Positions 655 to 23,686 of a stretch of 23,686 nucleotides of DNA are shown here, one piece after another. Under the pieces are notes generated by a model. That model did no database searches. It was not told the DNA's origin and worked only from the letters and a program-made list of their open reading frames with translations. The DNA is taken from contig JABTUH010000016.1 in the NCBI GenBank assembly GCA_015075455.1, positions 192,001 through 215,686 of the forward strand. The letters are read 5' to 3'. Origin of the DNA: Kofleriaceae bacterium. Its GTDB lineage: Bacteria; Myxococcota_A; Polyangia; Haliangiales; Haliangiaceae. Numbering within the stretch: position 1 is the first letter of the stretch; each line of letters starts with the position of its first letter. A program made the position numbers and the translations under genes.

Positions 655-659
655 CGAGA

Positions 660-8754: not shown

Positions 8755-9138
8755 TCAGCCGGCCGTGGCCGCGATCAGCGCCAGCACCCGCGCCCGCAGC
8801 GCCTGCGGCGCCCACGGCTTGGCGATGACCTCGTCGACGACACCGGCGGCCTGGGCCGCGACCAGGGTCGGCTCGTCGTCGAAGCCGGTCACGACCACGA
8901 CCCGCAGCCGGGGCCAGCGCGCGCGCGCGGCCCGGGCCAGCTCGACCCCGGTCGGCCGCCCCAGGGCCAGGTCGCTGACCAGGGCGTCGGCCGGCCAGCG
9001 CTCGAGCACCGCCAGGGCCTCGGTGGCGTCGGCGGCGGCCACCACCTCGGCGGCGCGGGCGAAGGTCCGCACCATCAGGTCGCGGTTGTACAGCTCGTCG
9101 TCGACGACCAGGATGCGCGGCGGCGGACCGTCAGCCAC
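8755..9138 (-). CDS. Single-domain response regulator (CheY-like receiver)
   Basis: 'RILVVDDE' acidic pocket, '[12 protein letters not shown]' phospho-acceptor Asp, 'VVVVTG' Thr, 'AKPW' Lys. No output domain. GTG start overlaps the histidine-kinase stop by 8 nt. Confidence 0.8.
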
Positions 9139-10501: not shown

Positions 10502-10550
10502 GCGGGGGGCTCGGGGGGCGGAGCGCGGGATGGTGCCGGATCGGTCCGGA

Positions 10551-11048
10551 TCAGGCCTCCGCCAGGAACGACAGGTAGCGCTCGGGCAGGTCGTCGAACT
10601 CCATGGTCGCGCCGCACTGCGAGCAGGCGAACTGCGGGATCTCGTGCTTGCCGCCGGTCTGCGTGACGTCGACCAGCTTCTCCTCCTCCTGGCCGCAGCG
10701 GTCGCACACGTAGGGCGCGAAGAAGGAGCGGATGCGAGCGTTGCCGCGGAAGTTGTAGATCATGTTGAGCTGGGTCACGATCGCCGGCGAGCAGTGCGAG
10801 AACGACAGCTCGGTGACGTGGGGCAGATCGCGGACGAAGTTGACCCACTCGCGCACGCCGCAGCTGTTGATGCGGCGGACCTCGCCGAGCTGGAACGCCA
10901 CGGCGCCGCGCAGCCGCCGCCGCAGCTCGACGAAGTCGGCGTTCTCGTCGATCTCCCCCACGAACTCGACGGTGGTCAGGCCGGGGCGTTCGCGGATGCG
11001 CCACGACAGCGCGACCGGCTCGGGCCCCCGCACGTCCGCCGTCGCCAT
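10551..11048 (-). CDS. STAS-domain (anti-sigma-factor-antagonist-like) protein fused to C-terminal C4 zinc ribbon
   Basis: '[18 protein letters not shown]...[23 protein letters not shown]...SPAIVTQL' aligns by eye to SpoIIAA ('IRLTGELD...IVLNLEDLSFMDSSGLGVILG...SPAVKRL'), including the phospho-Ser position. C-terminal 'CDRCGQ-x24-CSQCG' zinc ribbon. ATG at 11046-11048, 4 nt after the upstream gene stop. Confidence 0.75.
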
Positions 11049-11052
11049 CGCC

Positions 11053-11976
11053 TCACTCCATCCGCTCGGGCGACTTCTCGAAGTGCTGGCGGACCTCGGT
11101 CCGCGCCGCCTCGTCGAGCGACGCCGGCTCGATCAGCACGTCCTTGACGTCGAAGCGCACCGGCTCGGGGCTGGCGAAGACGCCGCGCTTGACGACGCGG
11201 CCCATGCGCCCGGCGAGGCCCTGGTAGGCGGCCTTCGACGGCGAGGCCCAGCCCGAGATCGCGCCGCCGCCGCCGAAGCGGGTCACCGCGGTCCCGACCG
11301 AGGCGACCGTCGCCGCCGGCACCTTGGCGTTGACCTGGACGAAGGCGGGGTTGGGCACCGCGCCGGTGTCGAACAGCTTGGCCAGGCCCTTCTGCGAGCC
11401 GATGGGCGCGAACACCGCCTGCGCGCCCTTGTACGACGCGACCTCGGCGACCGCGGCCGTCAGGTCGGGCTTGCCGACCCGGCTGGCGAAGAAGCCGGCG
11501 TCGACCTCGGACTCGAGCATGGCGTTGTCGACGAAGCCGTTGTCGTTGCAGCCGGTCTGCACGAACGCCAGCTTCTTGCCCTCGAGCGCCTTCATGTCGC
11601 CGCCGGCGCCCGAGAACAGGGCGTAGGTGCGGGCGCCGCTGCCGCCGATCTGGGCGTTGGCCAGCAGGTTCCAGCCCAGGTTGGTGGCGTAGCACTGGGC
11701 GTCGACGATCGCGAAGTCGACGCCGGCGCTCTTGAGGGCGCCGAACGAGGCGAACGACTTGGCCTCGGTCTTGACCCCGGTCTGGGCCTCGATCGCCTTG
11801 GCCAGGCCCTGGACGTAGGACAGGCGGTCCTGGGCGGTGCCGAACTCGACCGACGGCGCGTAGATGCCGATCACCAGCTTGCCGGGCGCCGGCTGGGTGG
11901 TGCCGGGACGGACCACCAGGGCGACGGCCAGGGCGACCAGGCAGAGCGTCGGGATGATGATGCTGAGCTTGCGCAT
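11053..11976 (-). CDS. Periplasmic solute-binding protein, PhnD/SsuA-like (putative)
   Basis: Signal peptide '[22 protein letters not shown]'. AGGAG 8 nt upstream of ATG. Type-2 SBP-like pattern '[10 protein letters not shown]...[13 protein letters not shown]...[11 protein letters not shown]...VDAGF'. Family assignment is tentative. Confidence 0.55.
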
Positions 11977-11995
11977 GGTGTGCTCCTGGGTGCCG

Positions 11996-14647
11996 CTAGT
12001 AGCCGTAGATCCGCTTCTTGGCGTCGATCCACTTCTGGAGATCGCGCGCGCCGGCGACCCGGCCCGACGCCGAGCGCCAGGCCTCGTAGGCGTCCTTGGG
12101 CCGCCCCGCCTGGTCGTAGAGGATGCCGAGGTTGACCAGCGCCTCGGGCGGCTGGCCGCGCAGCGCCTCGAGGGCGCCGATCTTGCTCTTGTCGAGCGAC
12201 AGCACCGCGCGGTTGTTGACCAGGCGACGCTTGGCGTCGTCGCTGGCGAAGCGCTCGGCGCTGTCGAGGGCCTTGGCCGCGGGCCCGGTGCGGCCGTTGC
12301 GCCAGTGGTCGAACGCGACGTACTCCCACGACGACGCGATCAGGTCGCGGACCTTGGTGCTGAAGGCGCCGGTGGCGCTGCCGAGCAGGCGGGTGAAGGT
12401 CGCGGCCGCTCGTTCGCGCAGGGTGGCGTTGTTCGAGCGGTAGTCGGCGTAGGCGCCGAAGAACTCGGTGCCGACCTTGGCGTAGGGCGCCTTGAGGTAC
12501 GCGGCCTGGTTGCCCTTGGCGGCGAGCTGCTTGAAGTACTTGCCGGCCTCGGCGGTGTCGCCCTTCTCGAGCAGGGCCAGGGCGTAGCTGAACTCGAAGG
12601 CCGCTGGCTCGGTGCCCTTGAGCAGCGAGGGCTCGCGGGTCGCGCGCTCCAGGTCGGCCACCGCCTCCGCGTCCTTGCCGGCCTTGATCGCCCGCCAGCC
12701 GCGGCGGAACAGGGCGAGGGCGAGGTTGCGCTTGGCCGCGGGCGCCACCTCCGGCGACTGGGCGGCGAAGCCCACGGCGATGCCGAGCTTCTCGACCGCC
12801 TCGTCGAGCTTGGTGTCGACCAGCAGCGGCGCCCACTCGGTGTAGATCTCGGCCTTCATCAGGTTCGCCTGGTTCTTGGTGGCCTCCTCGTCGGCCTCCG
12901 CGAAGTGCTGGGCGGCCCGCGCCTTGTCGGGCTTCTTCGCGCACAGGTGGGCGCGGCCGGCCAGGCGGTTGTAGAGCATGGAGTAGCCGCGGCGGTTGTC
13001 CTTGATGCGGTCGAGGTAGCGCAGCCCGCCGTCGCAGTCGCCGCGGTCGATGGCCAGGACCGCCAGGTTGAGCGCGACCATCGGCGAGCGGTCGTCGACC
13101 TTGAGCGCCTCCTCGAGGAAGGCGGCCGCGGTCTTGCCGTCACCCTTGGTGAAGGCGCCGGCGGCCTGGGCGTTGATGGTCTCGACGAGCGCGCGCCGGA
13201 TCTGCAGCTCCCTGGGTCGCAGGGCCACCGCGGCCTCGAAGCGCTGGCGCGCCACCACCAGCTTGCCCTGGTTGTACTGGGCCTTGGCGCTGACCAGGTA
13301 GAGCTCGGCGGCGAGCTCGGGCGGCGCGCTGGCGAACGCCTTGCCGGCGATGAGCTGGTCGGCGGTCTTGGCGGCGTCGCCGTCGCGCCGGGCCGCCAGG
13401 TAGGCGCCGCCGAGCTCGATGCCGAGGTCGAAGCTCGACGGGTCGAGCTGGCGGCCGGCCTCGAGCTTCTCGATGGCCAGCGCCAGGTTGGTGTTCTGGG
13501 CGCCGGTCGACGGCATGCGGCGGTAGGTCTTGCCCAGCCGCACGCTGAGCTCGCTGGCGCCCGCGCCGCCGCGCATGAGCTTCTCCGCCTGCAGGTAGGC
13601 CGCCAGGGCCTGGCCCCAGTCGCGCTCCTGGAAGTAGGCGTCGCCGATGAGGATGTAGCCGCGGGGCTCGTTCTTGCGCTTCTTCAGGTACTCGTTGGCG
13701 GCCTGCCGCGCCCGCTGCGGCAGCTTCTTGGCCAGGTACGCCGAGCCGAGGTTGAAGTAGACCGAGCCGTTGCTGTCGATGTTGCGCGGGTTGCCCTGCA
13801 GGCGCTCGCACACGGTGATGGCCTGGTCGAACTTGCGCAGGCCGGTGTAGGCGGCGCACAGTCCGATGTCGGCGTTGGGCTGGGCGTACTGGGCCTTGCC
13901 GTGCTTGCGGACGACGGTCTCGAACTCCTTGACCGCGCGCTCGTAGTCCCGGTTGGCGGCGTCGTGCTGGCTCTCGCGCACCGCCATGCGGCCGCGCGCC
14001 AGGTACGAGAAGCCGAGCCGGATGCGGGGCAGGACGTCGCGGCTCTCGCGATCGGCGGGCCGCGCCGCCAGGTACGCCTCGTAGGCGGTGATCGTCTTCA
14101 GCGGATCGCGGTTGAAGTAGAACTCGCCCAGGATCTGCTGGTTGGAGAACAGCGAGGCCCGCTTGGCCACCGCCTTCTCGGCGACCGCGACCGCGCCCGG
14201 CTTGTCGCCGGTCGCCCACAGGAGCAGCGCCTCCTGCTCGAGGACCTCGGCGGCCTCGGGGTGGGTGCGCTTGGCCACGGTGCGGATGAACTCGAGCCCG
14301 CCCTTGTAGTCGGCCTGGATGATGAAGATCGCCGCCCGCTTGCCGTAGGCCTCGGGCGGGACCTGGGTCGGGGCCGAGCGGATGGCCGAGTCGAAGGCCG
14401 CGGCGGCGCGTCGCCAGTTGGCCTCCTCGAAGTAGCGATCGCCCTCCTTCAGGTCCTCGGCCACGTCGGCGACGGCGGTGCCGGCGGCGAGGAGGACGAG
14501 CACGAGCCCGAGGGCGGCGGCCCAGGTGCGGGCCAGGCCGCGCGTGGCGCAGGACGTTCGCGTTGGTTCGTTCACGGGTTCCTCGTTCACGGGTTCCTCC
14601 ACGGGGGCCGTCGCGGCCCGGGCCTGCCAGCGCTCAGCGTTGCGCAC
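11996..14647 (-). CDS. Large TPR-repeat protein (883 aa) with N-terminal signal/anchor
   Basis: Hydrophobic 'WAAALGLVLVLLAAGTAVA' followed by many ~34-aa TPR-like units ('AAAAFDSAIRSAP', 'AVAEKAVAKRASLF', 'GDAYFQERDWGQALAAYLQA', etc.). Sits in the operon between the PP2C and SBP genes. Start at 14647 is preceded by a 15-bp tandem repeat in the coding region. Confidence 0.75.
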   Translation of the reverse strand: MRNAERWQARAATAPVEEPVNEEPVNEPTRTSCATRGLARTWAAALGLVLVLLAAGTAVADVAEDLKEGDRYFEEANWRRAAAAFDSAIRSAPTQVPPEAYGKRAAIFIIQADYKGGLEFIRTVAKRTHPEAAEVLEQEALLLWATGDKPGAVAVAEKAVAKRASLFSNQQILGEFYFNRDPLKTITAYEAYLAARPADRESRDVLPRIRLGFSYLARGRMAVRESQHDAANRDYERAVKEFETVVRKHGKAQYAQPNADIGLCAAYTGLRKFDQAITVCERLQGNPRNIDSNGSVYFNLGSAYLAKKLPQRARQAANEYLKKRKNEPRGYILIGDAYFQERDWGQALAAYLQAEKLMRGGAGASELSVRLGKTYRRMPSTGAQNTNLALAIEKLEAGRQLDPSSFDLGIELGGAYLAARRDGDAAKTADQLIAGKAFASAPPELAAELYLVSAKAQYNQGKLVVARQRFEAAVALRPRELQIRRALVETINAQAAGAFTKGDGKTAAAFLEEALKVDDRSPMVALNLAVLAIDRGDCDGGLRYLDRIKDNRRGYSMLYNRLAGRAHLCAKKPDKARAAQHFAEADEEATKNQANLMKAEIYTEWAPLLVDTKLDEAVEKLGIAVGFAAQSPEVAPAAKRNLALALFRRGWRAIKAGKDAEAVADLERATREPSLLKGTEPAAFEFSYALALLEKGDTAEAGKYFKQLAAKGNQAAYLKAPYAKVGTEFFGAYADYRSNNATLRERAAATFTRLLGSATGAFSTKVRDLIASSWEYVAFDHWRNGRTGPAAKALDSAERFASDDAKRRLVNNRAVLSLDKSKIGALEALRGQPPEALVNLGILYDQAGRPKDAYEAWRSASGRVAGARDLQKWIDAKKRIYGY
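14568..14600. repeat. Tandem 15-bp repeat 'gttcacgggttcctc' x2 (+1 partial) encoding 'EEPVNEEPVNEP' in the TPR gene 5' end
   Basis: Seen directly in sequence. Confidence 0.8.
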
Positions 14648-14663
14648 CGGTGCTCGCCGGTGC

Positions 14664-16352
14664 TCAGAAGACCTTGCCGATGACGAGCGTGATGTCGTCC
14701 TTGCGGATGTTGTCGCCGAAGAAGTTGGCGGCGTCGGTCACGACGGCGTCGCGGATCTCCCCGGCCTCGAGCGCGGCCGCCCGCCGCACCGAGGCCCGGA
14801 AGCGCTTCTCGCCGTACTCCTCGCCGCCGCTCGACTCGCACTCGACGATGCCGTCCGTGTACCAGACCAGGATGTCGCCGGGCATGAGCTCGGTGGTCTT
14901 GACCTCGTACTTCGACTCCTTGAGGTCGCCGAGCCGGTTGCCGCGGATCATCAGCGAGCCGAACTCGCCCTGCCCGCCCTCCGAGGTCCGGTACAGGTAG
15001 GGGAAGTTGTGGCCGGCGTTGGCGTACGTGATCGTGCGCCGGCGGGTGTCGATGACCGAGGCGAAGCAGGTCATCACGAACTTGCGCTTGGCGCTCTGGT
15101 AGATCGCCGAGTTCATGATCTCGAGCAGCTTGGCCGGGTCGACGTTGTCGCCGTTGACGGCGCGGGCGACGTCGCACGCCGCCTTGGCCGCCGCCGTGAT
15201 CATCGCCGACGGCACGCCGTGGCCGGTGACGTCGCCGATCACGACCAGGACCTTGTCGCCGACCATGTCGTGCCACGTCCACCAGTCGCCGCCGCACTGC
15301 GACGCCGGCTGGAAGTAGCCGGCGAAGCGCAGCGTGCCCTTGTCGACCGGATCGTGGGTCGGCACCAGGGTCTCCTGGATCGTCCGCGCCACCTCGAGCT
15401 CCTTCTCCATCGTCGCCTTCTCGGCGGTCTGCTGGAGCAGCACGAGGAGCTGGTCGGCCATGAAGTTGAAGTTCTCGCCGAGCAGGCCGAGCTCGTCGGT
15501 CGACTTGACCTCGACGCGGGCGGCCAGATCACCGCGGGCGATCTGGTCGGCCTTCCACGCCAGGAGCTTGATGGGCTTGGAGATCTGGACGCCCTGGAAG
15601 ATCGCGAGCAGGGTGCCGATGAGCACGAACAGCGCGCCGAAGGCGCCGGTGCGTAGCGCGGCCTTGCGCGCCTCCTCGTCCTTGAGCTTGGCGCTCTCGC
15701 GGGCGAAGGTGTCGACCGGCGACAGGTCGTAGCCGAAGACCACGTAGCCCTGACGGTTCTCGCCCGGGTCGTCGGCCGCGGCGGCGGCCGGGCTCCAGCC
15801 GACCTGCTCGCCCGAGAACACCGGGTAGGCGAACAACAGCAGCTTGCCGTCCTCGCCGGCGGTCCAGTCGAGCGAGACGCTGATCTCGGGCTCGGTCGCG
15901 GCGGCGCGCCGCTTCCACTCCTCCAGCACCTTGGCCCACGACGCGTGCTTGACCCGCTCGCCCTCGACCTCGCCGGCGGCGTCGCAGCGGTCGTCCTTGC
16001 GCCGGCAGTACTTGATGAGGTTCTGGACGCGACCGACGACGTAGACCAGCTTGAGCTCGGCGTCGTGCTTGAGGGTGTCGTCGACGATCTCCTTGATCTC
16101 GACGTCCTGGGTGTTGATGAAGTACGAGCGCAGGCCCTGGCCGAAGAAGATCGTGTTGGTCTCGCCCTTGCTCTCGAGCTGCTTGCGGTACTCGGTGATC
16201 TTGTCCTTGGCCGCGCGATCGTAGGCCTCGCGGATGTTGCACGCGTTCAGCAGACCGAAGCCCACCACCGTGAGGAGGATCAGGAACGTGGTGGTCAAGA
16301 TCATCTTGACCGAGATGCTCAAGCCGCCGCGCTTTGCCATTGGCCATGCCAT
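14664..16352 (-). CDS. Membrane-bound RsbU/SpoIIE-type PP2C serine phosphatase with periplasmic sensor region and HAMP domain
   Basis: TM1 '[18 protein letters not shown]', ~200-aa extracytoplasmic region, TM2 '[17 protein letters not shown]'. HAMP-like '[45 protein letters not shown]'. PP2C motifs '[10 protein letters not shown]', '[15 protein letters not shown]', 'NAGHNFPYL', 'VWYTDGIVE'. Confidence 0.85.
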
Positions 16353-16522
16353 GTTACGGCGTCTGGTCGGAAGGGGTCAACGAAGCGTCCCCGCGACCGG
16401 TCGGTCCATGTCCGGTGTAAAGTTCCACATGCGCCGATGTGGGTGTCCCGCGCGCACCGCCGCGCGCCTCGGCCGTCGGCGCCAGGGGTCGCATTGGCGA
16501 GCGCGCGACGCGCTCTGCTACG

Positions 16523-17089
16523 ATGCCGGGGATGGAGTCCCACCCCGCGCTGACCCAGTTCCTGACCGAGTTCAAGCGCGTGGCCAGCGCCATCGTCGAC
16601 AGCTACTTCATCGTCGACACCGAGCGCCGCATCGTCGACTTCAACCGCGCGTTCTTCGCGATGCTGCCGCGGCAGGTGGCGCGCGGCCTCAAGGGCAAGC
16701 GCTGCTTCGAGGTCATCGAGCTCAACATCTGCCGCAGCGAGTGCATCGCCCAGCAGTGCTGGACCGACAACCGACACGTCCGGCTCGACGAGATCAGCGG
16801 CAAGGTGCTGGGCGAGCCCGACGCCAAGGAGCTGCGCTTCATCCTGTCGGCGGTGCCGATCACCGACGAGAGCGGCCAGCACGTCGGCGCCCTCGAGATC
16901 CAGCGCAACGTCACCGACGAGGCGGTGGTCCAGGTCAAGTACCAGGAGATGCTCGAGAACGAGGCCCGCGAGCGCGAGCGCCTCGCCAACCAGATCCGCG
17001 CCCGCACCAAGGAGCTGCTCGAGACCAACCAGCTCCTGCTCAAGACCCAGAAGGAGCTCCTGTCCTACAAGAAGGGCCTCTCGGCCTGA
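16523..17089 (+). CDS. Stand-alone PAS-like sensor domain with 4-Cys motif plus C-terminal coiled coil; kinase-less paralog of the histidine-kinase N-terminus
   Basis: '[22 protein letters not shown]' (C-x8-C-x3-C-x4-C). Collinear similarity to histidine-kinase residues ~20-190 ('[16 protein letters not shown]' vs '[16 protein letters not shown]', '[10 protein letters not shown]' vs '[10 protein letters not shown]', '[14 protein letters not shown]' vs '[14 protein letters not shown]'). Ends just before where the histidine-kinase H-box would start. Start at ATG 16523 or 16532. Confidence 0.75.
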
Positions 17090-17111
17090 GCGCCGGGTGC
17101 CCCCCCCGGGG

Positions 17112-18059
17112 CTACTTGCCGCTGAAGAGCAGGAACGCCAGCACGCCGATGGCCGCGAGCAGCACGACCACGAGCACGTAGATCACGGCGCTCGACTTGG
17201 GCTGGGTCAGCGCCGGGCGCTCGGCGGGGACCGGCGTGGAGAAGCTGCCGCTGCCGGGGTTGGTGCCGGGCGAGGTGAAGTTGCCCGGCCGGCTGCCCGG
17301 GTTGGTGCCCTGGAACGAGCCCACCGGGCGCATGCCGGGGTGGGTGGTGGTCGTCACCGGCGTCATCGACGGCCGGCTGCCCGGCTTGGCGGTGATCGAC
17401 GGCGAGCTGCCGCTGGGCCGCGAGATCGACGGCAAGGACGGCACGCTGGGCAACGACGACACCGACGAGCTGTGCAGGCTCGAGGTGCCGGTGCGCGAGC
17501 GGATCTTGGACTTCTCGCCGTTGTCACCGGAGGCGAACTCCTTGATGACGCCGTTGATCTTGTCGGGCTCGGCGATCTTCTTCTGGTTCGACAGGAACGC
17601 GAAGTACGAGTCGGCCATGTCGTCGAAGTCCATGACCAGATCGCACTCGTCGCAGCGACAGGTCGGCGGCTCGTGCGGCCCCGAGCCCATGTCGGCCGCC
17701 TCGACGAGCAGCACCTTCTCCTCGTCGCACTCGGGACAGAAGTACGGGACGTAGAAGCTCTTGACCACGCCCGACCCGGTGAAGTTGTTGACGAGGTTGA
17801 TCTGGGCGACGATCGCCGGCGAGCACTCGACGAGCACCGCGCGGGTCGCCTGGGTCTCGAGCTTGCCGAGCCAGTTGACCCAGTCGCGCACGCCACACGA
17901 GTTGATGCGCTCGATCTCGCCGAGATCGATCACCGCCGTACCCGCCGGGATCTTGTCGGTCAGCGCGGTGAGCTCGTTGTCCTCGTCGATGACACCGCTC
18001 AGCTTGACGTAGCTGACGTCGTCGCGGTGGTGGACCGACGCCTGAAACTTCTGGCTCAT
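17112..18059 (-). CDS. STAS-domain plus C4 zinc-ribbon protein with Ser/Pro/Gly/Thr-rich linker and C-terminal transmembrane anchor
   Basis: Paralog of 10551..11048: '[23 protein letters not shown]...[15 protein letters not shown]...YFCPECDEE...[15 protein letters not shown]'. Then ~110 aa low-complexity ('[29 protein letters not shown]...[20 protein letters not shown]') and '[22 protein letters not shown]' TM. GGAGA 5 nt upstream of ATG 18057-18059. Confidence 0.8.
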
Positions 18060-18197
18060 TGCGTCTCCGTCGACACGTAATTCACGTAGCCGTGATTACA
18101 CCTGTACCCTAGAACCTTCAACTCGCAAAGCATATCGTGATCGCGCCAGCGGGATCCACTCCATGGACGTCGATCGTGGCCCGTCCCCCGCCTCGTG
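18060..18197. promoter_or_regulatory. Lower-GC intergenic region with imperfect inverted repeat 'gtaattcacgtagccgtgattac'; probable promoter/regulatory region for the STAS-ZnR-TM gene
   Basis: Local GC visibly lower (~50%) than the ~72% background. Contains an RBS and the palindromic element. No sigma-factor consensus assigned. Confidence 0.35.
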
Positions 18198-21100
18198 TCA
18201 CGCCTGGTTCGGGGCAGCGGTGAGGTAGTCGCGTAGGCGCTGGTAGTCGTCGGACAGATAGAAGCGCACCAGGTCGGCCCCGCCCAGCACCGCGCCCAGG
18301 GCCACGGTGGCGTCGTGAGACAGGAGCATCTCGCCGGTCAGGCGCGCGATCATCCAGGTGGCGGCGGCGAAGTCGTCGCAGGCGAGGAGCCCGCCGCGCT
18401 TGGCGGCGCCCAGCATGCCGTCGATCCAGGCGTCGCCGTCGACGTCGCGGCCCCAGTTCTGGTGGCGCTCGATGACCTTCTGCGCCCGCTTGGACAGCCC
18501 CTTCACGAACTCGTTGGTCGGCGCCGGCCGCTCGCCCTCGGGCAGCAGCAGCGACTTCATGAAGTTGCCGAGCTCGGATCGCTGGCGACGGCCGAGGTGG
18601 TGGAGGAAGGCGTACCCGCCCCGCAGCGCCTCGAAGGCCCAGCCGAGGAGGAAGCGGCGCGGCCCGTCGCCCTCGCCGACCAGCGACCGGTCGATCACCA
18701 CCAGGCGGCGGGGCGCCGCCACCAGCGCCACCAGGCCGGGCACGCGCTCGCCCACGAAGACCTCGGCCTCGATGGCGTCGAGCCGGGCGATGTCGGCGAC
18801 CGCGACCTTGAGCCCGGGGTCGTCCATGCCCTGTACCGGGATCAGGTTCTCCCCCAGCATCGGCGGCGGGTACAGGCCGCCCAGCTCGGCCGCGGCCGCC
18901 GCCAGCACCTCGCCGAACGGATCGCGCGCCGCCGTCGTCACCAGCAGCCGCATCCGCATCTCGTCGTCGAGCGCCCGCCGCATCGGGTGGTAGGGCAACG
19001 ACGCCCGCACCTTGGCGGCGGCGCCGCGATCGGACTCCTCGGCGAAGCCGAGCTGCTCCATCACCGTCAGCGCCCGCGCCGCCCGCTCCGGCTCGCCGAC
19101 GCGGGTGTAGTACGACGACAGGAGGCGGTAGGCCATCGCGTTGTGGATGTCGCGATCCACGACCTTGCGCAGCTCCGAGATCGCCTTGCCCGGGTCGTCG
19201 ATGGCGTAGATCTCGGCCAGCGCCACACGATCGGGCGGGCTGTCGTCGACGCCCAGGATGCCGCGGTAGGCCTCGATCGCCGCCGGCCGGTCGCCGGACG
19301 CGAGGAGGATGCGGGCCAGGCCGCGCTGCAGCGGCACCGCCGCCGGCGGCCCGCCCTTCTCCATCGCGGCGTGGGCGGCGTCGATGAGCAGGCCCTCGGC
19401 GCCGCGCTGGTCGCCGGCCTCGGCGGCGCGCCGCGCCAGGGCCAGGGCCGGCGGCGCGTAGCCCGGATCGTACTCGCTGGCCCGGCGGTACTGCGAGGTC
19501 GCGCCGCGAGGATCGCCCGAGGTCTCGGTGATGCGCCCGCGGTAGTAGTAGTAGCGGGCCAGGTTCTCGGGCGAGATCGCCGAGCCCGGCGCCGCCGCCA
19601 GCTCGATCACGCGATCGATCGCCGCCCGGGCGTCGGCGTGGCGCCCCAGCAGGTAGTGCTCCTGGGCCAGGCGGTAGTAGGCCTCCTCGTGGATCGGGTC
19701 GATGCGGATGACCTCGCGCAGGACCGAGATCGCGCGGTGGGGCTCCATCTCGCAGTCGGCGTGGATCTCGGCCTGCCGCATGAGCGCGCCGACGCGCACC
19801 GCCTGCGACACGTCGCTGTGGTTCAGGAACTTGACGATGGCGTCGACCGCGTGGCTCCACCGCCGCATGTTGAGGTGGAGCGTGATCATCGCCGACAGCA
19901 CCTCGAAGTCGTCGGGCGCCAGCGCCACCGCCTCGGCGTAGAGCTGCTGGGCCTGATCGAGGTCGCCCTCGCGCTCCTTCATGCCGGCCTGGGCGACGCG
20001 GACCCGGGCCAGGAAGGGCCCGGCGTCGTCGCGCTTCTTGTAGAGCTTGTCGAGCTCGCGGTAGATCGCGTCGAAGTCCCAGGCCTCGGGGTGCTTGCGC
20101 TGCAGGTCGAGCAGGCCGTCGAGGGCCGACAGGTTGTTGGGCTTGATCTCGAGGGCGACGATCAGGCTCTCGGCGGCGCCGCGGGCGTCGCCGGTCATGT
20201 GGGCGACCACGCCGCGCCGGCGATAGAACTCGCTGCGGGTGTTGGGATCGCCCTCGCGCATGGCCTTGACCGCCAGCGCCTGGGCCAGGGGCAGCGCCCG
20301 CTGCCACTCCCCGGCGTCGAAGTAGTGCTCGAACAGGGCCTGGTTGGCGGGCAGGCACTCGGGATCGACGGCGAGCGCGCTCTCGTAGTAGTGCATCGCC
20401 CGGTCGGGCTGGCCGAGGCGCGACTCGTAGATGCGGCCGATCTGGGCGAAGACGCCGGCCCGCTCCTTGTCGTCCTGCCACAGCTTGACCTCGAGCTCGA
20501 GGGTCTGGATGACCCGCGGCCAGTCCTCGCGCCGGCGGTAGAGGTCGCGCAGGCCGTGGACCGCCGGCAGGCACGAGGGCGAGGTCTTGATCGCCGCGTC
20601 GTAGTAGCGGATCGCGTCCTCCTCCTTGCCGAACTTGGCCTCCATCACCGAGCCGCACTTGAAGTAGAGCAGCGCCTTGAGGTTGCGATCGGTGGTGACC
20701 CGGATCTGGCGGCGGGTGACGTCGACGAACTCGGCCCACTGCTCCGTCGACTCGTAGATGCGGCCCAGGGCCTCGAGCGCCTCCTTGTTGGCGGGCGCGA
20801 TCTCGAGGATGCGCTGGTAGTGCTCGACCGCGCGCGACTCGTCGCGCAGGCCCTCCTCGCTGATCTGGGCGATGCGCTTGTGCAGGGTGGTCGCGGCGTC
20901 GCCGGCGGGGGCGGTGGCCAGGCGGTGGCGCAGGACCTCGACCAGCTTGCCCCAGTCGTGGTTGCGCTCGTACCAGCGCTCGAGCGCGTCGAGGGCCTCG
21001 ACGTCGGACGGATCGATGTCGAGGATGTGCTGGTAGAGGCGGGCGGCCTCGCCGAAGTCGCGCATCTTGGCGGCGGCGACCCGGGCGGCGCGGCGCAGCG

Positions 21101-23686
21101 ACTCGAGGCGGCGCTCGTCGTCGCGGGTCAGGCCGGCCCGCTTCTCGTAGACCCCGATGAGCCCGCTCCAGTCGCTCTTCTGCGAGAAGATCGACTCCAG
21201 GAACTTCACGCTGGTGTCGTTCTCGGGATCGATCTCGACGACCTTGACGTAGGACTGGGCCGCGGCGTCGAGCTCCCCCAGGTACTGGAGCTGGACCTGG
21301 CCGCGGCGGGCGTAGAGGTCGCCCAGGCGGTAGGCCCGCGACGCGCCGCTCTCCACCAGGTCGATCGCGCTCTGGTAGAGCTTCATCGCCGACGCCCAGC
21401 GCTCGTGCTTGTAGCAGAGCTTCTCGAGCGAGGTGAAGACCTCGCGGTTGGCGGGGTCGGCGAGGAACGACGCGGTGAAGGCGGCGATCGCGCCGTCGGG
21501 GTCGCCGCGGTTCTGCTTGACCTGGGCGATGCGCCCGTAGAGCTGGGCCCGCTCCAGCTTGTCGATCGTCGAGTCGGCGCGGGCCTCCAGCACCCGCATC
21601 AGATCCTTGTCGCGGCCGAGCCGCTCGTACAGCCGCTCGAGGGCCTCGAGCGCAGGCACGTACTGGGGGCGGCGCTCGAGGATCGACTCGTAGGCGAGCG
21701 CGGCGTCGGCGGGCTTGGCCAGCTTCTCCTCGCGGAGCTGGCCGAGCCGGGTCAGGATCGCGAGCTGGGCGTCGACGTTGCCCGCCGGCGCCGCCGCCAG
21801 CTCGCGCTCGAGCGCGCCGGCCAGGTCGGCCCAGCGCTCGGTGCGCTCGAGCAGCCGGGTCAGGTCGCGGTGGCTGTCGGTGCTGGCGCTGCCCTGGGCC
21901 GCGAGCTGGTGGAAGCGGATCGCGGTCTCGACGTCGCCGAGCTTGTCCTCGGCCATGCGCGCCAGCGACGCCGCCAGCCGCGGCCGCTCGGCGGCCGGGG
22001 TCAGCTCGATCTCGGCCTGCCGGATCTCGGCCAGCTCGGTCCACTCGCCCAGGCGCTCGAGGGCCTCGGCCAGGACCCGCAGGTTGGCCAGGGTCCGCGG
22101 CGCGCGCCGGTAGGCGATCGCCAGCTCGCGCCAGCGATCGTGGCCGCGGGCGACGCGGTCGACCCCGGCCAGGGCGGCGGCGTCGGCGGCGTCGATCGAG
22201 AGCGCGTCGTCGTAGGCGGCGAGCGCCCGCTCGGGGTCGCGCCCGTCCTCGTACAGCTTGCCGGCCTCGAGCTGGATGGCGAGGCGCCGCGACGGCTCGA
22301 CGCCGCGGGTCAGCTCCTGCTCGAGCAGCGCCAGCAGGCGATCGTTGCGGCGGGCCCGGCGGTGGAGCTGCTGCAGGGCGCGCAGCGGCTCGACGGCGCG
22401 ATCGTCGGCGCGCGCGGCGCGCTCGTAGGCGGCCAGGGCCGCGGCGTCGTCGTTGCGCCGGGTCTCCTCGAGCTGGCCGATCTCCAGGTACATCTGGGCC
22501 TGGCGGCGGACGTCCTTGACCAGCTCGGCGACGCGGGCCCGTAGCTCGATCGCCTTGTCCCATTGCCGGCCGTGCTCGCACAGCCGCGCCAGCTCGTAGG
22601 TGACGTCGGGGTCGTCGGGCCGCAGGGTCTGGGCCTGCTCGAGCACGGCGCGGGCGCGCCGGGTGTCGCTGATGTGCTCGGCCAGGATCTTGCCGTGCTC
22701 GCGCAGGAGCACCAGCTTGAGCTCCTCGGAGGTGCACAGCGCGGTGAGATCGGACAGCGTGCTCGACAGCTCGCGCCAGCGCTCGGCCTTGCGGTAGATC
22801 GCGGCCAGCGCGCCCTTGGCCGCGGGATCCTGCGGCGCCTGGCGCGAGGCCTGGAGAAGGAGCTCCTCCGCCTCCAGCGGCCGGGCGCGCGCGAGCTCGA
22901 GGGCGCCGGCGGCGAACAGGAGCGCGGTGGCGGCGCGGCGGTCGCGGGCCGACTGCGCCGCCGCCCGGTAGATCTCGCCGAGCTGGGCGCGGTCGCGCTG
23001 GCGACGGGCGAGGCGCGCGAGGTGGTCGAGCTCGCTCTGGCGCGCCGGACCGGGAGCGCGCTCCGACGACGCGACCTTGAGCAGCTCGAGGGCGCGGGCG
23101 ACGTCGCCCAGCCGGGCCTCGATGACCAGCGCCGCCCGCCGGTTGCCGGCCCGGGCGCCGTCCTTGGCCTGGGCCAGGAGGTGGCCGACCAGGGCCTCGG
23201 GCTCGCCGGCGCGCAGGCGCTCGAGCGTGAGCAGGCCGCTGGCCGTCCGGGCACCGGACGTCGCGAGCTGGGCCAGCTCGCCGGCCATGGCCAGCCCGTG
23301 GGCGTCGGCGATCTCGAGGGCGCGCCAGGCGTGGGCCGCGGACAGGCCGCCGGCGGCCTGCGACTCGGCGAGGCCACGGCGCGCGGTCACGGCGTCGCCC
23401 CAGCGGCTGGCGCGGTGGCCGACCCGGGCCATGGCCAGCCGCGCCAGCACCGGGCCGTAGCCCTCGTCGCCGGCGGCCGAGGCGTAGCCGGAGACCGCGG
23501 CGCCCAGGACGCCGGCGGCGAGCCGGGCGTCGGCGAGGGCGTGGCGGGTGGCGGCCTCCTCGCGGCGGGCCCCGGCGTCGGCCTCGAGCAGCTCGAGGCG
23601 GCGCTCGTGCAGCGCGGCCACGGCCGCGCCGTCGGCGCCCCCGGGCAGGCGCTGGGCGGCGTCGAGGGCGAGGTCGATCGCGCGCA
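18198..23686 (-). CDS. Giant TPR-repeat protein (>1829 aa), N-terminus beyond window edge
   Basis: Frame open from window end to TGA at 18198-18200. Dozens of TPR-like helical pairs ('AIELRARVAELVKDVRRQAQMYLEIGQL', 'ALAAYERAARADDRAVEPLRALQQLH', 'AIRYYDAAIKTSPSCLPAVHGLRDLY', etc.). Acidic/aromatic C-terminal region. Confidence 0.75.
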   Translation of the reverse strand, partial: RAIDLALDAAQRLPGGADGAAVAALHERRLELLEADAGARREEAATRHALADARLAAGVLGAAVSGYASAAGDEGYGPVLARLAMARVGHRASRWGDAVTARRGLAESQAAGGLSAAHAWRALEIADAHGLAMAGELAQLATSGARTASGLLTLERLRAGEPEALVGHLLAQAKDGARAGNRRAALVIEARLGDVARALELLKVASSERAPGPARQSELDHLARLARRQRDRAQLGEIYRAAAQSARDRRAATALLFAAGALELARARPLEAEELLLQASRQAPQDPAAKGALAAIYRKAERWRELSSTLSDLTALCTSEELKLVLLREHGKILAEHISDTRRARAVLEQAQTLRPDDPDVTYELARLCEHGRQWDKAIELRARVAELVKDVRRQAQMYLEIGQLEETRRNDDAAALAAYERAARADDRAVEPLRALQQLHRRARRNDRLLALLEQELTRGVEPSRRLAIQLEAGKLYEDGRDPERALAAYDDALSIDAADAAALAGVDRVARGHDRWRELAIAYRRAPRTLANLRVLAEALERLGEWTELAEIRQAEIELTPAAERPRLAASLARMAEDKLGDVETAIRFHQLAAQGSASTDSHRDLTRLLERTERWADLAGALERELAAAPAGNVDAQLAILTRLGQLREEKLAKPADAALAYESILERRPQYVPALEALERLYERLGRDKDLMRVLEARADSTIDKLERAQLYGRIAQVKQNRGDPDGAIAAFTASFLADPANREVFTSLEKLCYKHERWASAMKLYQSAIDLVESGASRAYRLGDLYARRGQVQLQYLGELDAAAQSYVKVVEIDPENDTSVKFLESIFSQKSDWSGLIGVYEKRAGLTRDDERRLESLRRAARVAAAKMRDFGEAARLYQHILDIDPSDVEALDALERWYERNHDWGKLVEVLRHRLATAPAGDAATTLHKRIAQISEEGLRDESRAVEHYQRILEIAPANKEALEALGRIYESTEQWAEFVDVTRRQIRVTTDRNLKALLYFKCGSVMEAKFGKEEDAIRYYDAAIKTSPSCLPAVHGLRDLYRRREDWPRVIQTLELEVKLWQDDKERAGVFAQIGRIYESRLGQPDRAMHYYESALAVDPECLPANQALFEHYFDAGEWQRALPLAQALAVKAMREGDPNTRSEFYRRRGVVAHMTGDARGAAESLIVALEIKPNNLSALDGLLDLQRKHPEAWDFDAIYRELDKLYKKRDDAGPFLARVRVAQAGMKEREGDLDQAQQLYAEAVALAPDDFEVLSAMITLHLNMRRWSHAVDAIVKFLNHSDVSQAVRVGALMRQAEIHADCEMEPHRAISVLREVIRIDPIHEEAYYRLAQEHYLLGRHADARAAIDRVIELAAAPGSAISPENLARYYYYRGRITETSGDPRGATSQYRRASEYDPGYAPPALALARRAAEAGDQRGAEGLLIDAAHAAMEKGGPPAAVPLQRGLARILLASGDRPAAIEAYRGILGVDDSPPDRVALAEIYAIDDPGKAISELRKVVDRDIHNAMAYRLLSSYYTRVGEPERAARALTVMEQLGFAEESDRGAAAKVRASLPYHPMRRALDDEMRMRLLVTTAARDPFGEVLAAAAAELGGLYPPPMLGENLIPVQGMDDPGLKVAVADIARLDAIEAEVFVGERVPGLVALVAAPRRLVVIDRSLVGEGDGPRRFLLGWAFEALRGGYAFLHHLGRRQRSELGNFMKSLLLPEGERPAPTNEFVKGLSKRAQKVIERHQNWGRDVDGDAWIDGMLGAAKRGGLLACDDFAAATWMIARLTGEMLLSHDATVALGAVLGGADLVRFYLSDDYQRLRDYLTAAPNQA

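What the first reader, a model, noticed from the sequence alone, without database searches (positions are those of the whole stretch)
16523..17089. Kinase-less paralog of the histidine-kinase sensor region (4-Cys PAS + coiled coil) encoded divergently next to the PP2C operon
The protein aligns collinearly with residues ~20-190 of the histidine kinase at 9131..10501, including the Cys cluster (C61/C70/C74/C79 at 16703..16759) and the heptad-like helix '[36 protein letters not shown]'. It stops exactly where the HK DHp H-box would begin. Such truncated sensor paralogs can heterodimerise with, and titrate, the full-length kinase, or serve as a second sensor for the STAS-ZnR partner encoded convergently.
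Basis: partly seen in the sequence, partly recalled or inferred. Interest (0 to 1): 0.65.

Follow-up and report, generated by a model that had tools for sequence, protein, structure and literature searches.

The report
Stand-alone cysteine-triad PAS sensor protein
This is a real, very strongly conserved small sensor protein (a PAS domain with a cysteine cluster, a long signalling helix and no output domain) that is related to the sensor half of the nearby histidine kinase, but it belongs to its own widespread, uncharacterised family that travels with a phosphatase/STAS signalling gene cluster rather than with that kinase.

Summary
The ORF at 16523..17089 (+) aligns collinearly with residues 1-168 of the histidine kinase (HK) at 9131..10501 (30% identity, E 5e-23; profile-profile E 7.5e-41). 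It ends where the kinase's DHp domain begins. The conserved start is probably 16532, giving 185 aa.

It is not a local truncated copy of that kinase. It belongs to an old, separate family of about 170-195 aa proteins: a PAS domain plus a signalling helix, usually ending three residues after a [KR][KR]G motif. It is present in all 80 Kofleriaceae species loci fetched, at a median 86% identity, while its neighbours are 53-64% identical. The kinase module is present in only 16 of the 80.

In distant relatives one operon reads: giant TPR > tail-anchored STAS-Zn-ribbon > PAS-helix > HAMP-PP2C > TPR > binding-protein-like gene. In this window the PAS gene alone is inverted inside that cluster.

Three cysteines and an acidic residue (C61-x-E63-x6-C70-x3-C74) are kept or lost together. 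Their spacing equals that of the [4Fe-4S]-binding PAS domain of OrpR.

Best reading: a dimeric, probably redox/Fe-S-sensing adaptor that signals by protein contact to the STAS-ZnR/PP2C module. Titrating the kinase is at most a side role. New variant of a known kind; moderate interest.

The parts
16523..17089 (+). CDS of the stand-alone PAS + signalling-helix protein (188 aa from the first ATG). The conserved start is probably 16532, giving 185 aa.
   Evidence: ORF list and sequence. 811 homologues, the best 120 at 82-93% identity and mostly about 185 aa. Relatives lack the first ATG. Median dN 0.098 against dS 0.48.
16586..16909 (+). PAS core, residues about 22-129. It is preceded by an N-cap helix, residues 8-21 (16544..16585).
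   Evidence: Pfam PAS_9 29.5 bits (cut-off 27) and PAS_4 25.1 bits (cut-off 23.1). AlphaFold2 pLDDT 95.1. Foldseek top hits are LOV/PAS domains.
16703..16759 (+). Cysteine cluster C61-F-E63-x6-C70-x3-C74-x4-C79. The triad plus the acidic residue forms the conserved core; the fourth Cys is variable across the family.
   Evidence: Invariant among Kofleriaceae orthologues. The triad is kept or lost as a unit in 183 family members. The spacing equals OrpR C52/[D/E]54/C61/C65 (PMC8359166).
16913..17083 (+). Single long C-terminal helix, residues 131-187. It begins at the NVTDE ('DIT'-type) junction. Leu/Ile recur every 7 residues (144, 158, 165, 172, 179, 186) and an R161-T162 motif is conserved.
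   Evidence: AlphaFold2 secondary structure. Column conservation and period-7 power in 117 stand-alone members.
17066..17086 (+). Conserved C-terminal tail Y-K-K-G-L-S-A. The family pattern is [YFH][KR][KR]G-L-x-x followed by the stop codon.
   Evidence: 95 of 116 stand-alone members carry [KR][KR]G near the end; 85 of them end exactly 3 residues after it. Alignment A2.
16353..16522 (.). Divergent intergenic region. It holds a conserved palindrome CCACAT-N6-ATGTGG (16425..16442), a conserved TTGGCG (16494..16499) ... TACGAT (16519..16524) just upstream of the ATG at 16532, and a promoter-like site for the PP2C gene on the minus strand (16380..16351).
   Evidence: Alignment of 9 close loci. The palindrome is unique in the window. 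Promoter scan. These are consensus matches and conservation only; none was shown to function.
14664..16352 (-). Membrane HAMP-PP2C (SpoIIE-family) Ser/Thr phosphatase. It is the commonest neighbour of the PAS gene.
   Evidence: Pfam SpoIIE 145 bits and HAMP 52 bits. Adjacent to the PAS gene in 68 of 80 species loci.
17112..18059 (-). STAS + Zn-ribbon protein (315 aa) with a Pro/Ser/Gly-rich linker and a C-terminal hydrophobic tail anchor. It lies directly upstream of the PAS gene in the ancestral operon order.
   Evidence: 39% identical to the 165-aa paralogue. The paralogue's model has a STAS fold. Operon order in L086, L088, L173, L052 and L054. Sequence.
18198..23621 (-). Giant all-TPR protein (1807 aa) with no signal peptide. 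It is adjacent to the tail-anchored STAS-ZnR gene in every locus examined.
   Evidence: Pfam TPR families only. TPR>STAS-ZnR adjacency in every metagenome locus with room upstream.
11996..14647 (-). TPR protein (883 aa) with an N-terminal hydrophobic segment. It follows the PP2C gene in the cluster.
   Evidence: Pfam TPR. Sequence. Synteny.
11053..11976 (-). 307-aa protein with a signal-peptide-like N-terminus. It may be like a periplasmic binding protein.
   Evidence: Sequence. Orthologues carry a faint Phosphonate-bd hit. Synteny.
10551..11048 (-). STAS + Zn-ribbon paralogue (165 aa), directly upstream of the HK.
   Evidence: AlphaFold2 pLDDT 79.6, and Foldseek top hits are anti-sigma-factor antagonists.
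9131..10501 (-). Histidine kinase whose sensor region (residues 1-168) is the paralogue of the finding. Its motif is C56-x-E58-x6-C65-x3-C69-x2-C72.
   Evidence: Pfam PAS_4, HisKA and HATPase_c. BLASTP. hhalign.
8755..9138 (-). Single-domain response regulator (127 aa), the last gene of the cluster.
   Evidence: Pfam Response_reg 64 bits.

Best explanation
The gene encodes a stand-alone 'short PAS' sensor. It has an N-cap helix, a PAS core, a roughly 57-residue signalling-helix-type coiled coil and a short, fixed-length conserved C-terminal tail. It has no enzymatic or DNA-binding output.

It is a core, slowly evolving subunit of a conserved signalling cluster: giant cytoplasmic TPR, tail-anchored STAS-Zn-ribbon, PAS-helix, membrane HAMP-PP2C phosphatase, TPR, and a binding-protein-like gene.

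Inferred mechanism:
- It dimerises through the helix.
- In Kofleriaceae the PAS pocket holds a redox-sensitive metal centre, most likely an OrpR-like Fe-S cluster on C61/C70/C74 with E63 or C79 as fourth ligand.
- Changes in that centre are passed down the helix to a bound partner protein.
- The most likely direct partner is the tail-anchored STAS-ZnR protein, whose conserved serine would be the substrate of the PP2C. This mirrors the paralogous pair of STAS-ZnR165 and the Cys-triad PAS-HK.
- The protein would thus add a cytoplasmic redox input to a partner-switch-like module whose other input is the periplasmic domain of the PP2C.

Shown here: homology, fold, family, synteny, the conservation pattern and the motif. 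Inferred, not shown: dimerisation, the cofactor, the identity of the partner and the direction of signalling.
For: It is a real gene under strong constraint.
- Identity to the window is 80-99% in 80 species-level loci, median 86%. Neighbours are far less conserved: PP2C 58%, TPR883 53%, p307 62%.
- Median dN is 0.098, against 0.315 for PP2C and 0.308 for p307. It resembles the STAS-ZnR315 N-domain, at 0.081.

Fold.
- AlphaFold2 pLDDT 95.1: PAS core plus one helix, 131-187.
- The nearest solved structures are LOV/short-LOV proteins with A'alpha and Jalpha helices, and the PAS of Rv1364c.
- The best PDB sequence match is the short LOV protein 7r5n, E 3e-4.

It is its own family.
- Dozens of 50%-identity clusters of 165-200 aa proteins, down to about 27-35% identity.
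- 85 of 116 end exactly three residues after [KR][KR]G, and the HK-type sensors form a separate clade.
- The heptad of Leu/Ile is 84-100% conserved.

Cluster membership.
- Distant relatives without the cysteine triad (37-41% identity) sit in one co-directional operon: TPR > STAS-ZnR > PAS-helix > HAMP-PP2C > TPR > p307-like. L052 and L054 have the same order.
- PP2C is adjacent in 68 of 80 loci. STAS-ZnR315 is adjacent in 21 and within the flank in 17 more.
- The PAS gene stays next to STAS-ZnR genes where the PP2C block is missing: L013, L016, L017, L070, and L174 from a Haliangium sp..

Paired paralogy. The two STAS-ZnR proteins are 39% identical and the PAS-helix and PAS-HK are 30% identical. 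Each STAS-ZnR lies directly upstream of its PAS gene in the ancestral order.

STAS fold. It was confirmed for the 165-aa paralogue. The serine of RINSCG sits at the N-cap of the helix that follows strand 3.

Cofactor.
- The triad C61/C70/C74 is all-or-none across 183 family members, and position 63 is mostly E, D or Q.
- The spacing is identical to OrpR C52, D/E54, C61 and C65, which bind a redox-sensitive [4Fe-4S] cluster (PMC8359166).
- C61 aligns with the pocket-facing photoactive Cys of LOV domains.

Precedent. A stand-alone LOV-Jalpha protein signals to an adjacently encoded effector (PMC9758184).
Against: - No interaction, dimerisation or cofactor was tested.
- No model coordinates were available, so Cys-Cys distances could not be measured.
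The OrpR link therefore rests on motif spacing and on the position in the domain, not on an alignment.
- Many family members, including those in the intact ancestral operon (L086-L089), lack the triad. The cluster's core function therefore does not need it.
- Within Kofleriaceae, direct adjacency to STAS-ZnR315 is a minority pattern: 21 of 80 genome loci and 5 of 48 metagenome loci. PP2C adjacency is the majority, so PP2C is an equally plausible direct partner.
- No RsbW-type serine kinase is encoded in this window, so phosphorylation of STAS-ZnR is conjecture.
- About 10 of 80 loci place the gene in other contexts, such as Wza plus pseudopilins. One distant family member, L175, also lies outside the cluster.
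Confidence: 0.5

Rival explanations
1. Kinase decoy. The protein forms heterodimers with the full-length HK at 9131..10501 through the homologous PAS and helix, and so titrates or modulates its autophosphorylation.
For: The two regions are collinearly homologous, with the same heptad register and the same RT-containing helix. Both genes lie in one cluster in this genome and in 16 of 80 species loci. In L070 and L174 the PAS gene is directly divergent from the STAS-ZnR165-HK operon.
Against: - The stand-alone family is present in 80 of 80 loci but the HK module in 16 of 80.
- The intact ancestral operon in distant lineages has no HK.
- Stand-alone and HK-type sensors are old, separate clades that are only about 30% identical.
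- The stand-alone form has a conserved C-terminal tail and an 86% median identity, which a simple decoy role does not explain.
Confidence: 0.12
2. Split regulatory domain of the phosphatase. The PAS-helix dimer binds the HAMP/linker region of the neighbouring HAMP-PP2C and switches its activity. It would work like the covalently attached PAS of RsbP or Rv1364c. STAS-ZnR would be only a downstream substrate.
For: PP2C is the most frequent neighbour: 66 divergent and 2 co-directional of 80 loci. It lies immediately downstream in the ancestral operon. The Foldseek hits include the PAS of Rv1364c, which I recall to be a PAS-PP2C-kinase-STAS fusion. PAS-coiled-coil-PP2C architecture is established for RsbP (own knowledge).
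Against: The PAS gene persists next to STAS-ZnR genes in loci without a nearby PP2C: L013, L016, L017, L070 and L174. PP2C evolves about three times faster than the PAS protein. The paralogous module pairs the PAS sensor with a STAS-ZnR, not with a PP2C.
Confidence: 0.25
3. Same adaptor role, but the cysteines do not hold an Fe-S cluster. They would form a structural or regulatory Zn site or a thiol-disulfide switch, and the PAS pocket would sense something else or nothing.
For: - Cys3-4 sites often bind Zn.
- The fourth Cys is variable, and triad-less members keep D74 and C79.
- Cultured relatives (Haliangium, Kofleria) are aerobes (own knowledge), which makes labile clusters costly.
- The OrpR link is by motif only.
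Against: The spacing and the acidic +2 residue match the one PAS family shown to bind [4Fe-4S] with this motif. The triad lies on the pocket-lining Ealpha-Falpha segment, and C61 aligns with the LOV cofactor cysteine. That is not a typical place for a structural Zn knuckle.
Confidence: 0.25
4. Non-functional remnant: a decaying fragment of a kinase gene or a spurious ORF in high-GC DNA.
For: It is a short ORF in 73% GC DNA where many spurious ORFs overlap. It ends at a domain boundary of a paralogous kinase.
Against: - Full-length orthologues are 80-99% identical in 80 species.
- dN is about one fifth of dS, and a third of the neighbours' dN.
- The fold prediction is confident.
- The terminus is conserved.
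Confidence: 0.01

Closest known systems
Short LOV proteins (PpSB1-LOV, PF5-LOV 7r5n, PmSB-LOV)
   Same: Stand-alone PAS-type core with an N-cap helix and a long C-terminal Jalpha helix, and no effector domain. They give the best structural and sequence matches in the PDB. PmSB-LOV signals to an adjacently encoded effector protein (PMC9758184). C61 aligns with the LOV photoactive Cys.
   Different: The flavin-binding motif is absent (NCRFLQ and the Asn/Gln set). The helix is longer, with a fixed [KR][KR]G-xxx tail. The cofactor site is cysteine-rich. The genomic partners are STAS-ZnR, PP2C and TPR proteins.
OrpR N-terminal PAS domain (Desulfovibrio vulgaris sigma54 activator, PMC8359166)
   Same: Three conserved cysteines with the identical spacing C-x8-C-x3-C, plus a conserved acidic residue two positions after the first Cys, at a similar distance from the start of the PAS domain. 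In OrpR they hold a redox-sensitive [4Fe-4S] cluster.
   Different: In OrpR the PAS domain is fused to an AAA+ sigma54-activator and a DNA-binding domain, and the organism is an anaerobe. Here the PAS is stand-alone in a lineage whose cultured relatives are aerobes (own knowledge). Homology was not tested by alignment. A fourth Cys (C79) is present here.
NreB PAS domain (Staphylococcus / Bacillus licheniformis)
   Same: A cytoplasmic PAS domain that senses through a Cys-ligated Fe-S cluster and drives a histidine kinase. It is conceptually like the paralogous HK here.
   Different: The motif is C-x2-C-x11-C(-x2-C), not C-x8-C-x3-C. It is always fused to a kinase.
Sensor region of the adjacent histidine kinase (9131..10501) and its HK-type relatives
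   Same: Collinear homology over the PAS domain and the signalling helix, the same Cys triad plus Glu, and the same heptad register. Each is preceded by a STAS-ZnR gene in the ancestral order.
   Different: About 30% identity and separate clades. The stand-alone form stops at the DHp boundary with its own conserved tail. It is far more widespread and more conserved than the HK.
PAS-regulated partner-switching proteins: RsbP (PAS-coiled coil-PP2C), Rv1364c (PAS-PP2C-kinase-STAS), YtvA (LOV-Jalpha-STAS)
   Same: In each, a PAS domain with a helical linker controls a PP2C or a STAS domain (own knowledge). The Rv1364c PAS is among the Foldseek hits.
   Different: In those proteins the domains are fused in one polypeptide. 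Here PAS-helix, STAS-ZnR and HAMP-PP2C are separate genes, the STAS carries a Zn ribbon and a membrane tail anchor, and no RsbW-type kinase or sigma factor is encoded in the window.
HAMP-PP2C partner-switch systems that control biofilm or polysaccharide (SiaABCD; SypE/SypA)
   Same: The PP2C's best named match is SiaA, at 98 bits. In related loci an RsbW-like kinase, a 100-aa STAS, glycosyltransferases and Wza lie beside the cluster.
   Different: The SiaA match is far below the cut-off of 700. Neither system has a stand-alone PAS-helix subunit, to my knowledge. Any link to polysaccharide here rests on neighbourhood only.

Membership tests
PAS domain superfamily | Profile match above the curated threshold, and the five-stranded antiparallel sheet with flanking helices | tested here: met
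   PAS_9 29.5 bits (cut-off 27) and PAS_4 25.1 bits (cut-off 23.1). AlphaFold2 pLDDT 95.1 with PAS topology. 302 Foldseek PDB matches with E<=1e-3; all 50 listed are PAS/LOV domains.
LOV / short LOV photoreceptors | Photoactive Cys within the GXNCRFLQ motif, plus the conserved flavin-binding Asn/Gln residues | tested here: not met
   C61 aligns with the LOV Cys. However, the surrounding sequence is GKRCFEVIE, and the region corresponding to the NY.K.G..F.N flavin-binding block reads DEISGKV...LRFILSAVP (sequence).
OrpR-type Fe-S PAS | Three conserved Cys with spacing C-x8-C-x3-C and an acidic residue at +2 | tested here: met
   C61-F-E63-x6-C70-x3-C74. Invariant in orthologues. All-or-none across 183 family members. 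Motif definition from PMC8359166.
OrpR-type Fe-S PAS | Sequence homology to the OrpR PAS domain beyond the motif | not tested
   The OrpR sequence could not be obtained with the tools. No supplementary text is held.
OrpR-type Fe-S PAS | Binds a redox-sensitive [4Fe-4S] cluster | not testable with these tools
   This needs anaerobic purification and spectroscopy.
NreB-type Fe-S PAS | C-x2-C-x11-C(-x2-C) motif | tested here: not met
   The spacing here is x8/x3/x4. NreB motif.
Sensor histidine kinase | DHp with the H-box histidine, and a HATPase_c catalytic domain | tested here: not met
   No HisKA or HATPase_c hit. The protein ends at the position of HK residue about 172, nine residues before His181.
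Signalling helix (S-helix) coiled coil | A helix of about 40-50 residues with heptad periodicity and a central E-R-T signature, linking a sensor to an output domain (definition from my own knowledge of Anantharaman et al. 2006) | tested here: inconclusive
   The heptad of conserved Leu/Ile and a conserved R161-T162 are present. The HK paralogue has E-R-T and the target has A-R-T. No output domain follows, which is atypical for the class.
Partner-switching module (RsbU/RsbV/RsbW type) | PP2C phosphatase | tested here: met
   SpoIIE-family domain, 145 bits, in the adjacent gene.
Partner-switching module (RsbU/RsbV/RsbW type) | STAS-fold antagonist with a phosphorylatable Ser at the N-terminus of helix 2 | tested here: met
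   For the STAS-ZnR165 model, the Foldseek top hits are SpoIIAA, RsbV and the Haliangium antagonist 4hyl. The Ser of RINSCG follows strand 48-60 at the start of helix 62-73. The motif is invariant in both paralogues. Whether it is phosphorylated is unknown.
Partner-switching module (RsbU/RsbV/RsbW type) | RsbW/SpoIIAB-type serine kinase / anti-sigma factor, and a target sigma factor | tested here: not met
   None among the nine cluster genes (8755..23621) or the tested efflux/regulator ORFs at 896..8712 scanned with Pfam; ORFs at 1..895 were not scanned. A HATPase_c_2 gene with a 100-aa STAS lies beside the cluster in about 17 related loci.

The most novel reading that the evidence does not exclude
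The PAS-helix protein is the redox-sensing (Fe-S) subunit of a previously undescribed multi-protein signalling complex of Myxococcota. In this reading its fixed-length C-terminal tail ([KR][KR]G-x-x-x-COOH) docks into the giant cytoplasmic TPR scaffold, in the way TPR clamps bind C-terminal peptides. Its signalling helix engages the tail-anchored STAS-Zn-ribbon protein. Cytoplasmic redox state would then gate a membrane-bound PP2C/STAS switch, which may control polysaccharide export or pseudopilus machinery. It would be a PAS sensor whose output is assembly of a complex rather than an attached enzyme.
Probability: 0.15. Interest if true: 0.7.

Novelty: new variant of a known kind. Interest (0 to 1): 0.45.

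Why it matters
Stand-alone PAS proteins without an output domain are common in genomes, but almost none has a known partner or mechanism. This family offers unusually strong handles:
- It is extremely conserved: 86% median identity across a bacterial family, while its neighbours drift to 50-60%.
- It has a fixed place in a conserved operon, between a STAS-Zn-ribbon protein and a HAMP-PP2C phosphatase.
- It has a paralogous pair in which the same sensor drives a histidine kinase.
- Its cysteine motif matches the only PAS type known to hold a [4Fe-4S] cluster with this spacing.

If the inference holds, it would show how a redox signal enters a partner-switch-like pathway through a separate adaptor. 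It would also extend the OrpR-type Fe-S PAS domain from anaerobic transcription activators to Myxococcota, whose cultured members are aerobes, and to kinase and adaptor architectures.

If it does not hold, the gene is still a well-defined, uncharacterised family that deserves a name of its own.

Tried and rejected
- **LOV photoreceptor.** Rejected. Only the Cys position matches and the flavin motif is absent.
- **NreB-type motif.** Rejected on spacing.
- **Invertible (phase-variable) element, to explain the single inverted gene.** No convincing flanking inverted repeats. The best is 16 nt, lying inside coding sequence on both sides. The inversion is fixed in most species.
- **Pseudogene or spurious ORF.** Rejected by conservation and dN/dS.
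- **Direct PDB sequence search with the single protein.** No hit.
- **Genome scan with the divergent alignment A2.** The closer alignment A3 returned only Kofleriaceae, so cultured model organisms were not sampled.
- **Metagenome scan with the STAS-ZnR alignment.** It returned only close orthologues. That showed the TPR-STAS linkage, but not whether STAS-PAS pairing is general in distant lineages.
- **Cluster look-up for taxonomy of distant members.** It gave almost no names.
- **Structure prediction with locus-derived STAS sequences.** It was redone with database hits.
- **AFDB fold search.** Not available.
- **Model coordinates.** A fused-chain 'complex' prediction was also judged uninterpretable and was not run.
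- **OrpR sequence.** Not obtainable.
- **Sigma-54 promoter in the intergenic region.** None was seen by eye.
- **Intrinsic terminators.** None was found between the convergent genes.
Full report
**The observation**

The window is 73% G+C. By near-identity it comes from a Kofleriaceae (Myxococcota) metagenome-assembled genome:
- Locus L006 is 98-100% identical over all ten window proteins compared.
- The neighbouring STAS protein is 100% identical to 'HS111_33760 [Kofleriaceae bacterium]'.

The ORF at 16523..17089 (+) encodes 188 aa. BLASTP against the histidine kinase at 9131..10501 (-) aligns target residues 10-177 with kinase residues 1-168: 30% identity, 54% positives, E 5e-23. A profile of 31 stand-alone relatives against a profile of 8 kinase-type sensor regions gives hhalign probability 100%, E 7.5e-41, over 172 columns.

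Three align with kinase C56, C65 and C69. The fourth is shifted by two residues. In the profile alignment the protein ends opposite kinase residue about 172, where the Pfam HisKA match begins.

One correction. Close relatives read TACGATCG where the window has its first ATG, they share the downstream ATGGA, and most homologues are about 185 aa. The real start is therefore probably 16532.

**What the protein is**

- Pfam finds only a PAS domain: PAS_9 and PAS_4, both above threshold.
- AlphaFold2 on a 31-sequence alignment gives pLDDT 95.1. The model has an N-cap helix (8-21), a PAS core (27-129) and one uninterrupted helix (131-187).
- The nearest solved structures are LOV and 'short LOV' proteins with A'alpha and Jalpha helices, DosP, and the PAS of Rv1364c. 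The best PDB sequence match is the short LOV protein 7r5n.
- It is not a LOV domain. Only the cysteine position matches, and the flavin motif is missing.
- In the helix, Leu/Ile recur every seven residues (144, 158, 165, 172, 179, 186). These positions are 84-100% hydrophobic in 117 stand-alone relatives. The other core position is often polar, and an R161-T162 pair is conserved. This is the look of a marginally stable signalling helix rather than a structural zipper.

**It is a family of its own, not a local truncation**

- An exhaustive search of 1.84 billion cluster representatives finds 801 relatives (128 with E<=1e-10). They include dozens of clusters of full-length 165-200 aa proteins down to about 27-35% identity. 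They also include 400-490 aa PAS-HisKA-HATPase_c kinases that match through their N-termini.
- The kinase-type sensors form essentially one clade, holding 28 of 33. The window's kinase belongs there.
- The stand-alone proteins share a feature the kinases lack. 95 of 116 carry [KR][KR]G near the end, and 85 of those stop exactly three residues after it. The pattern is ...EL.x[YFH][KR][KR]GLxx-stop.

**Conservation**

One scan of species-representative genomes returned 80 loci. All are Kofleriaceae or Haliangiales MAGs with the protein at 80-99% identity. Median identity to the window:

| Protein | Median identity |
|---|---|
| PAS protein | 86% |
| HK | 74% |
| STAS-ZnR315 (whole length) | 64% |
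| p307 | 62% |
| PP2C | 58% |
| TPR883 | 53% |

(All.) Median dN is 0.098 for the PAS protein, against 0.315 (PP2C) and 0.308 (p307). It is close to the STAS-ZnR315 N-domain, at 0.081. dS is depressed by the extreme GC3 bias, so only the relative values are used. A pseudogene or spurious ORF is excluded.

**Genomic setting**

On the minus strand the window reads:
1. TPR1807 (23621..18198)
2. STAS-ZnR315 (18059..17112)
3. the PAS gene, on the plus strand
4. HAMP-PP2C (16352..14664)
5. TPR883 (14647..11996)
6. p307 (11976..11053)
7. STAS-ZnR165 (11048..10551)
8. HK (10501..9131)
9. response regulator (9138..8755)

Distant relatives are 37-41% identical and lack the cysteine triad. In them one co-directional operon reads: giant TPR > STAS-ZnR (283 aa) > PAS-helix > HAMP-PP2C > TPR > p307-like. 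Two Kofleriaceae species keep all nine genes co-directional (L052 and L054). In the window, then, the PAS gene alone has been inverted in place. The inversion is fixed in most species (PP2C divergent-adjacent in 66 of 80 loci) and is not flanked by meaningful inverted repeats.

Other linkage facts:
- STAS-ZnR315 is adjacent in 21 of 80 loci and within 8 kb in 17 more.
- It is always preceded by the giant TPR gene.
- The kinase module is present in only 16 of 80 loci.
- Where the PP2C block is missing, the PAS gene still sits beside STAS-ZnR genes: L013, L016, L017, L070, and a Haliangium sp. MAG where it lies between the two STAS-ZnR paralogues.
- About 10 of 80 loci show other contexts, notably Wza plus pseudopilins.

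**The partners**

- The two STAS-ZnR proteins are 39% identical.
- A model of the 165-aa paralogue (pLDDT 79.6) matches anti-sigma-factor antagonists best: Haliangium 4hyl, SpoIIAA and RsbV.
- The invariant RINSCG serine sits at the start of the helix after strand 3. From established knowledge, that is where SpoIIAA and RsbV are phosphorylated.
- The 315-aa paralogue adds a Pro/Ser/Gly-rich linker and a C-terminal hydrophobic anchor.
- The PP2C has two hydrophobic segments flanking a domain of about 190 residues that is presumably periplasmic, then HAMP and SpoIIE domains.
- TPR883 and p307 have signal-like N-termini. TPR1807 has none.
- No RsbW-type kinase is encoded in the window. One lies beside the cluster, with a 100-aa STAS and glycosyltransferases, in about 17 related loci.

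**The cysteines**

- Across 183 family members, C61, C70 and C74 are kept or lost together. They are present in about 97 of 128 stand-alone and about 44 of 55 kinase-type proteins.
- Position 63 is mostly Glu, Asp or Gln.
- The fourth Cys is variable.
- Triad-less members have Asp at position 74 and keep C79.
- The spacing C-x-[DE]-x6-C-x3-C equals that of OrpR from Desulfovibrio. There C52, C61 and C65, with a conserved D/E54, are needed for redox sensing by a [4Fe-4S] cluster in the PAS domain (PMC8359166).
- NreB uses a different motif, C-x2-C-x11-C.
- C61 aligns with the pocket-facing LOV cysteine. The triad lies on the Ealpha-Falpha segment.

This is a motif-level match from the literature. 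I could not align OrpR itself or measure distances in the model.

**Mechanism**

I commit to this reading: a dimeric stand-alone sensor that passes a cytoplasmic redox signal, probably from an Fe-S cluster, down its signalling helix to a bound partner within the STAS-ZnR/PP2C module.

The partner I consider most likely is the tail-anchored STAS-ZnR, for four reasons:
1. The sensor and the STAS-ZnR exist as two paralogous pairs, each with the STAS gene directly upstream in the ancestral order.
2. The pairing survives loss of the PP2C block.
3. The two proteins evolve at the same slow rate.
4. YtvA shows that a PAS-Jalpha unit can drive a STAS domain (own knowledge).

The PP2C as direct partner is nearly as plausible. 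It would follow the model of RsbP or Rv1364c, and PP2C is the commonest neighbour. Titration of the kinase is possible in the minority of species that have it, but it cannot explain the family's distribution or its conserved tail.

The fixed-length C-terminal tail, together with two large TPR proteins in the cluster, suggests docking to a TPR scaffold. That is speculation.

**Novelty**

The family carries only the generic label 'PAS domain-containing protein'. It has no specific Pfam or NCBIfam model. I found no paper describing it or the cluster.

The kind of thing is known: a stand-alone PAS-Jalpha sensor, and a PAS input to partner switching. This combination is a new variant: an OrpR-like triad, a signalling helix that ends in a fixed tail, and STAS-Zn-ribbon, HAMP-PP2C and TPR partners.

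Noticed in passing
window 16523..17089 within the cluster 8755..23621: The PAS gene is the only gene on the + strand in an otherwise co-directional nine-gene minus-strand cluster. The same genes are all co-directional in L052, L054, L086-L089 and L173. This is a fixed single-gene inversion, with no convincing flanking inverted repeats.
   Followed up: yes
window 16425..16442: Perfect palindrome CCACAT-N6-ATGTGG in the divergent intergenic region. Its arms are conserved in close relatives and it is unique in the window (0.24 expected by chance). It may be an operator shared by the PAS and PP2C promoters.
   Followed up: partly
window 16494..16534: Conserved TTGGCG-N19-TACGAT lies immediately before the conserved ATG at 16532. 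The first ATG (16523) is absent in relatives. This suggests a 185-aa product and a very short or absent leader.
   Followed up: partly
window 16351..16390 (minus strand): Promoter-like site TTGACC-N18-TAACAT for the PP2C gene. Its -10 element overlaps the annotated PP2C start codon. The GTCAACGAA block is conserved in 9 loci. Either the mRNA is leaderless or the true PP2C start lies further downstream.
   Followed up: no
L002-L004, L013, L016, L017, L019, L020: In eight loci the PAS-helix orthologue (85-90% identical) lies next to a Poly_export (Wza-like) gene, three N_methyl pseudopilin genes and an FG-GAP protein, instead of the PP2C block.
   Followed up: partly
L001 and L005 (1884..4585) and about 15 further loci: Downstream of the p307 gene, many Kofleriaceae carry an RsbW-like HATPase_c_2 kinase, a 100-aa STAS, a Bac_transf priming transferase and a GT4 glycosyltransferase. 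This window has STAS-ZnR165-HK-RR in that place. It hints that the cluster regulates polysaccharide synthesis.
   Followed up: partly
window 9131..10501: The kinase's best NCBIfam match is NF038348 'T2SS_HK', at 228 bits. That is well below its 450-bit cut-off, but it is notable given the pseudopilin genes beside the PAS gene in other loci.
   Followed up: no
window 17112..17600: STAS-ZnR315 carries a linker of about 130 residues that is low-complexity and rich in Pro/Ser/Gly/Thr, then a C-terminal hydrophobic stretch ([21 protein letters not shown]) that looks like a tail anchor. Its N-domain is 86-100% identical across 80 metagenome loci, while the linker diverges.
   Followed up: partly
L174 (Haliangium sp. 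MAG GCA_050303215.1) 7443..11459: Minimal arrangement: RR < HK < STAS-ZnR(170 aa) < | PAS-helix > | STAS(283 aa) <. There is no PP2C, TPR883, p307 or giant TPR nearby.
   Followed up: no
window 2189..8712: TetR-family regulator (2189..2929, -), HlyD-type membrane fusion protein (within 3629..5653, +) and AcrB-type RND pump (5650..8712, +). This is an efflux operon convergent with the end of the signalling cluster and seems unrelated to it.
   Followed up: no
L086 15516..16472; also L028, L043, L088: In the distant operons, a 318-aa protein with no Pfam hit follows the p307-like gene. Homologues occur near the PAS gene in some Kofleriaceae loci but not in this window.
   Followed up: no
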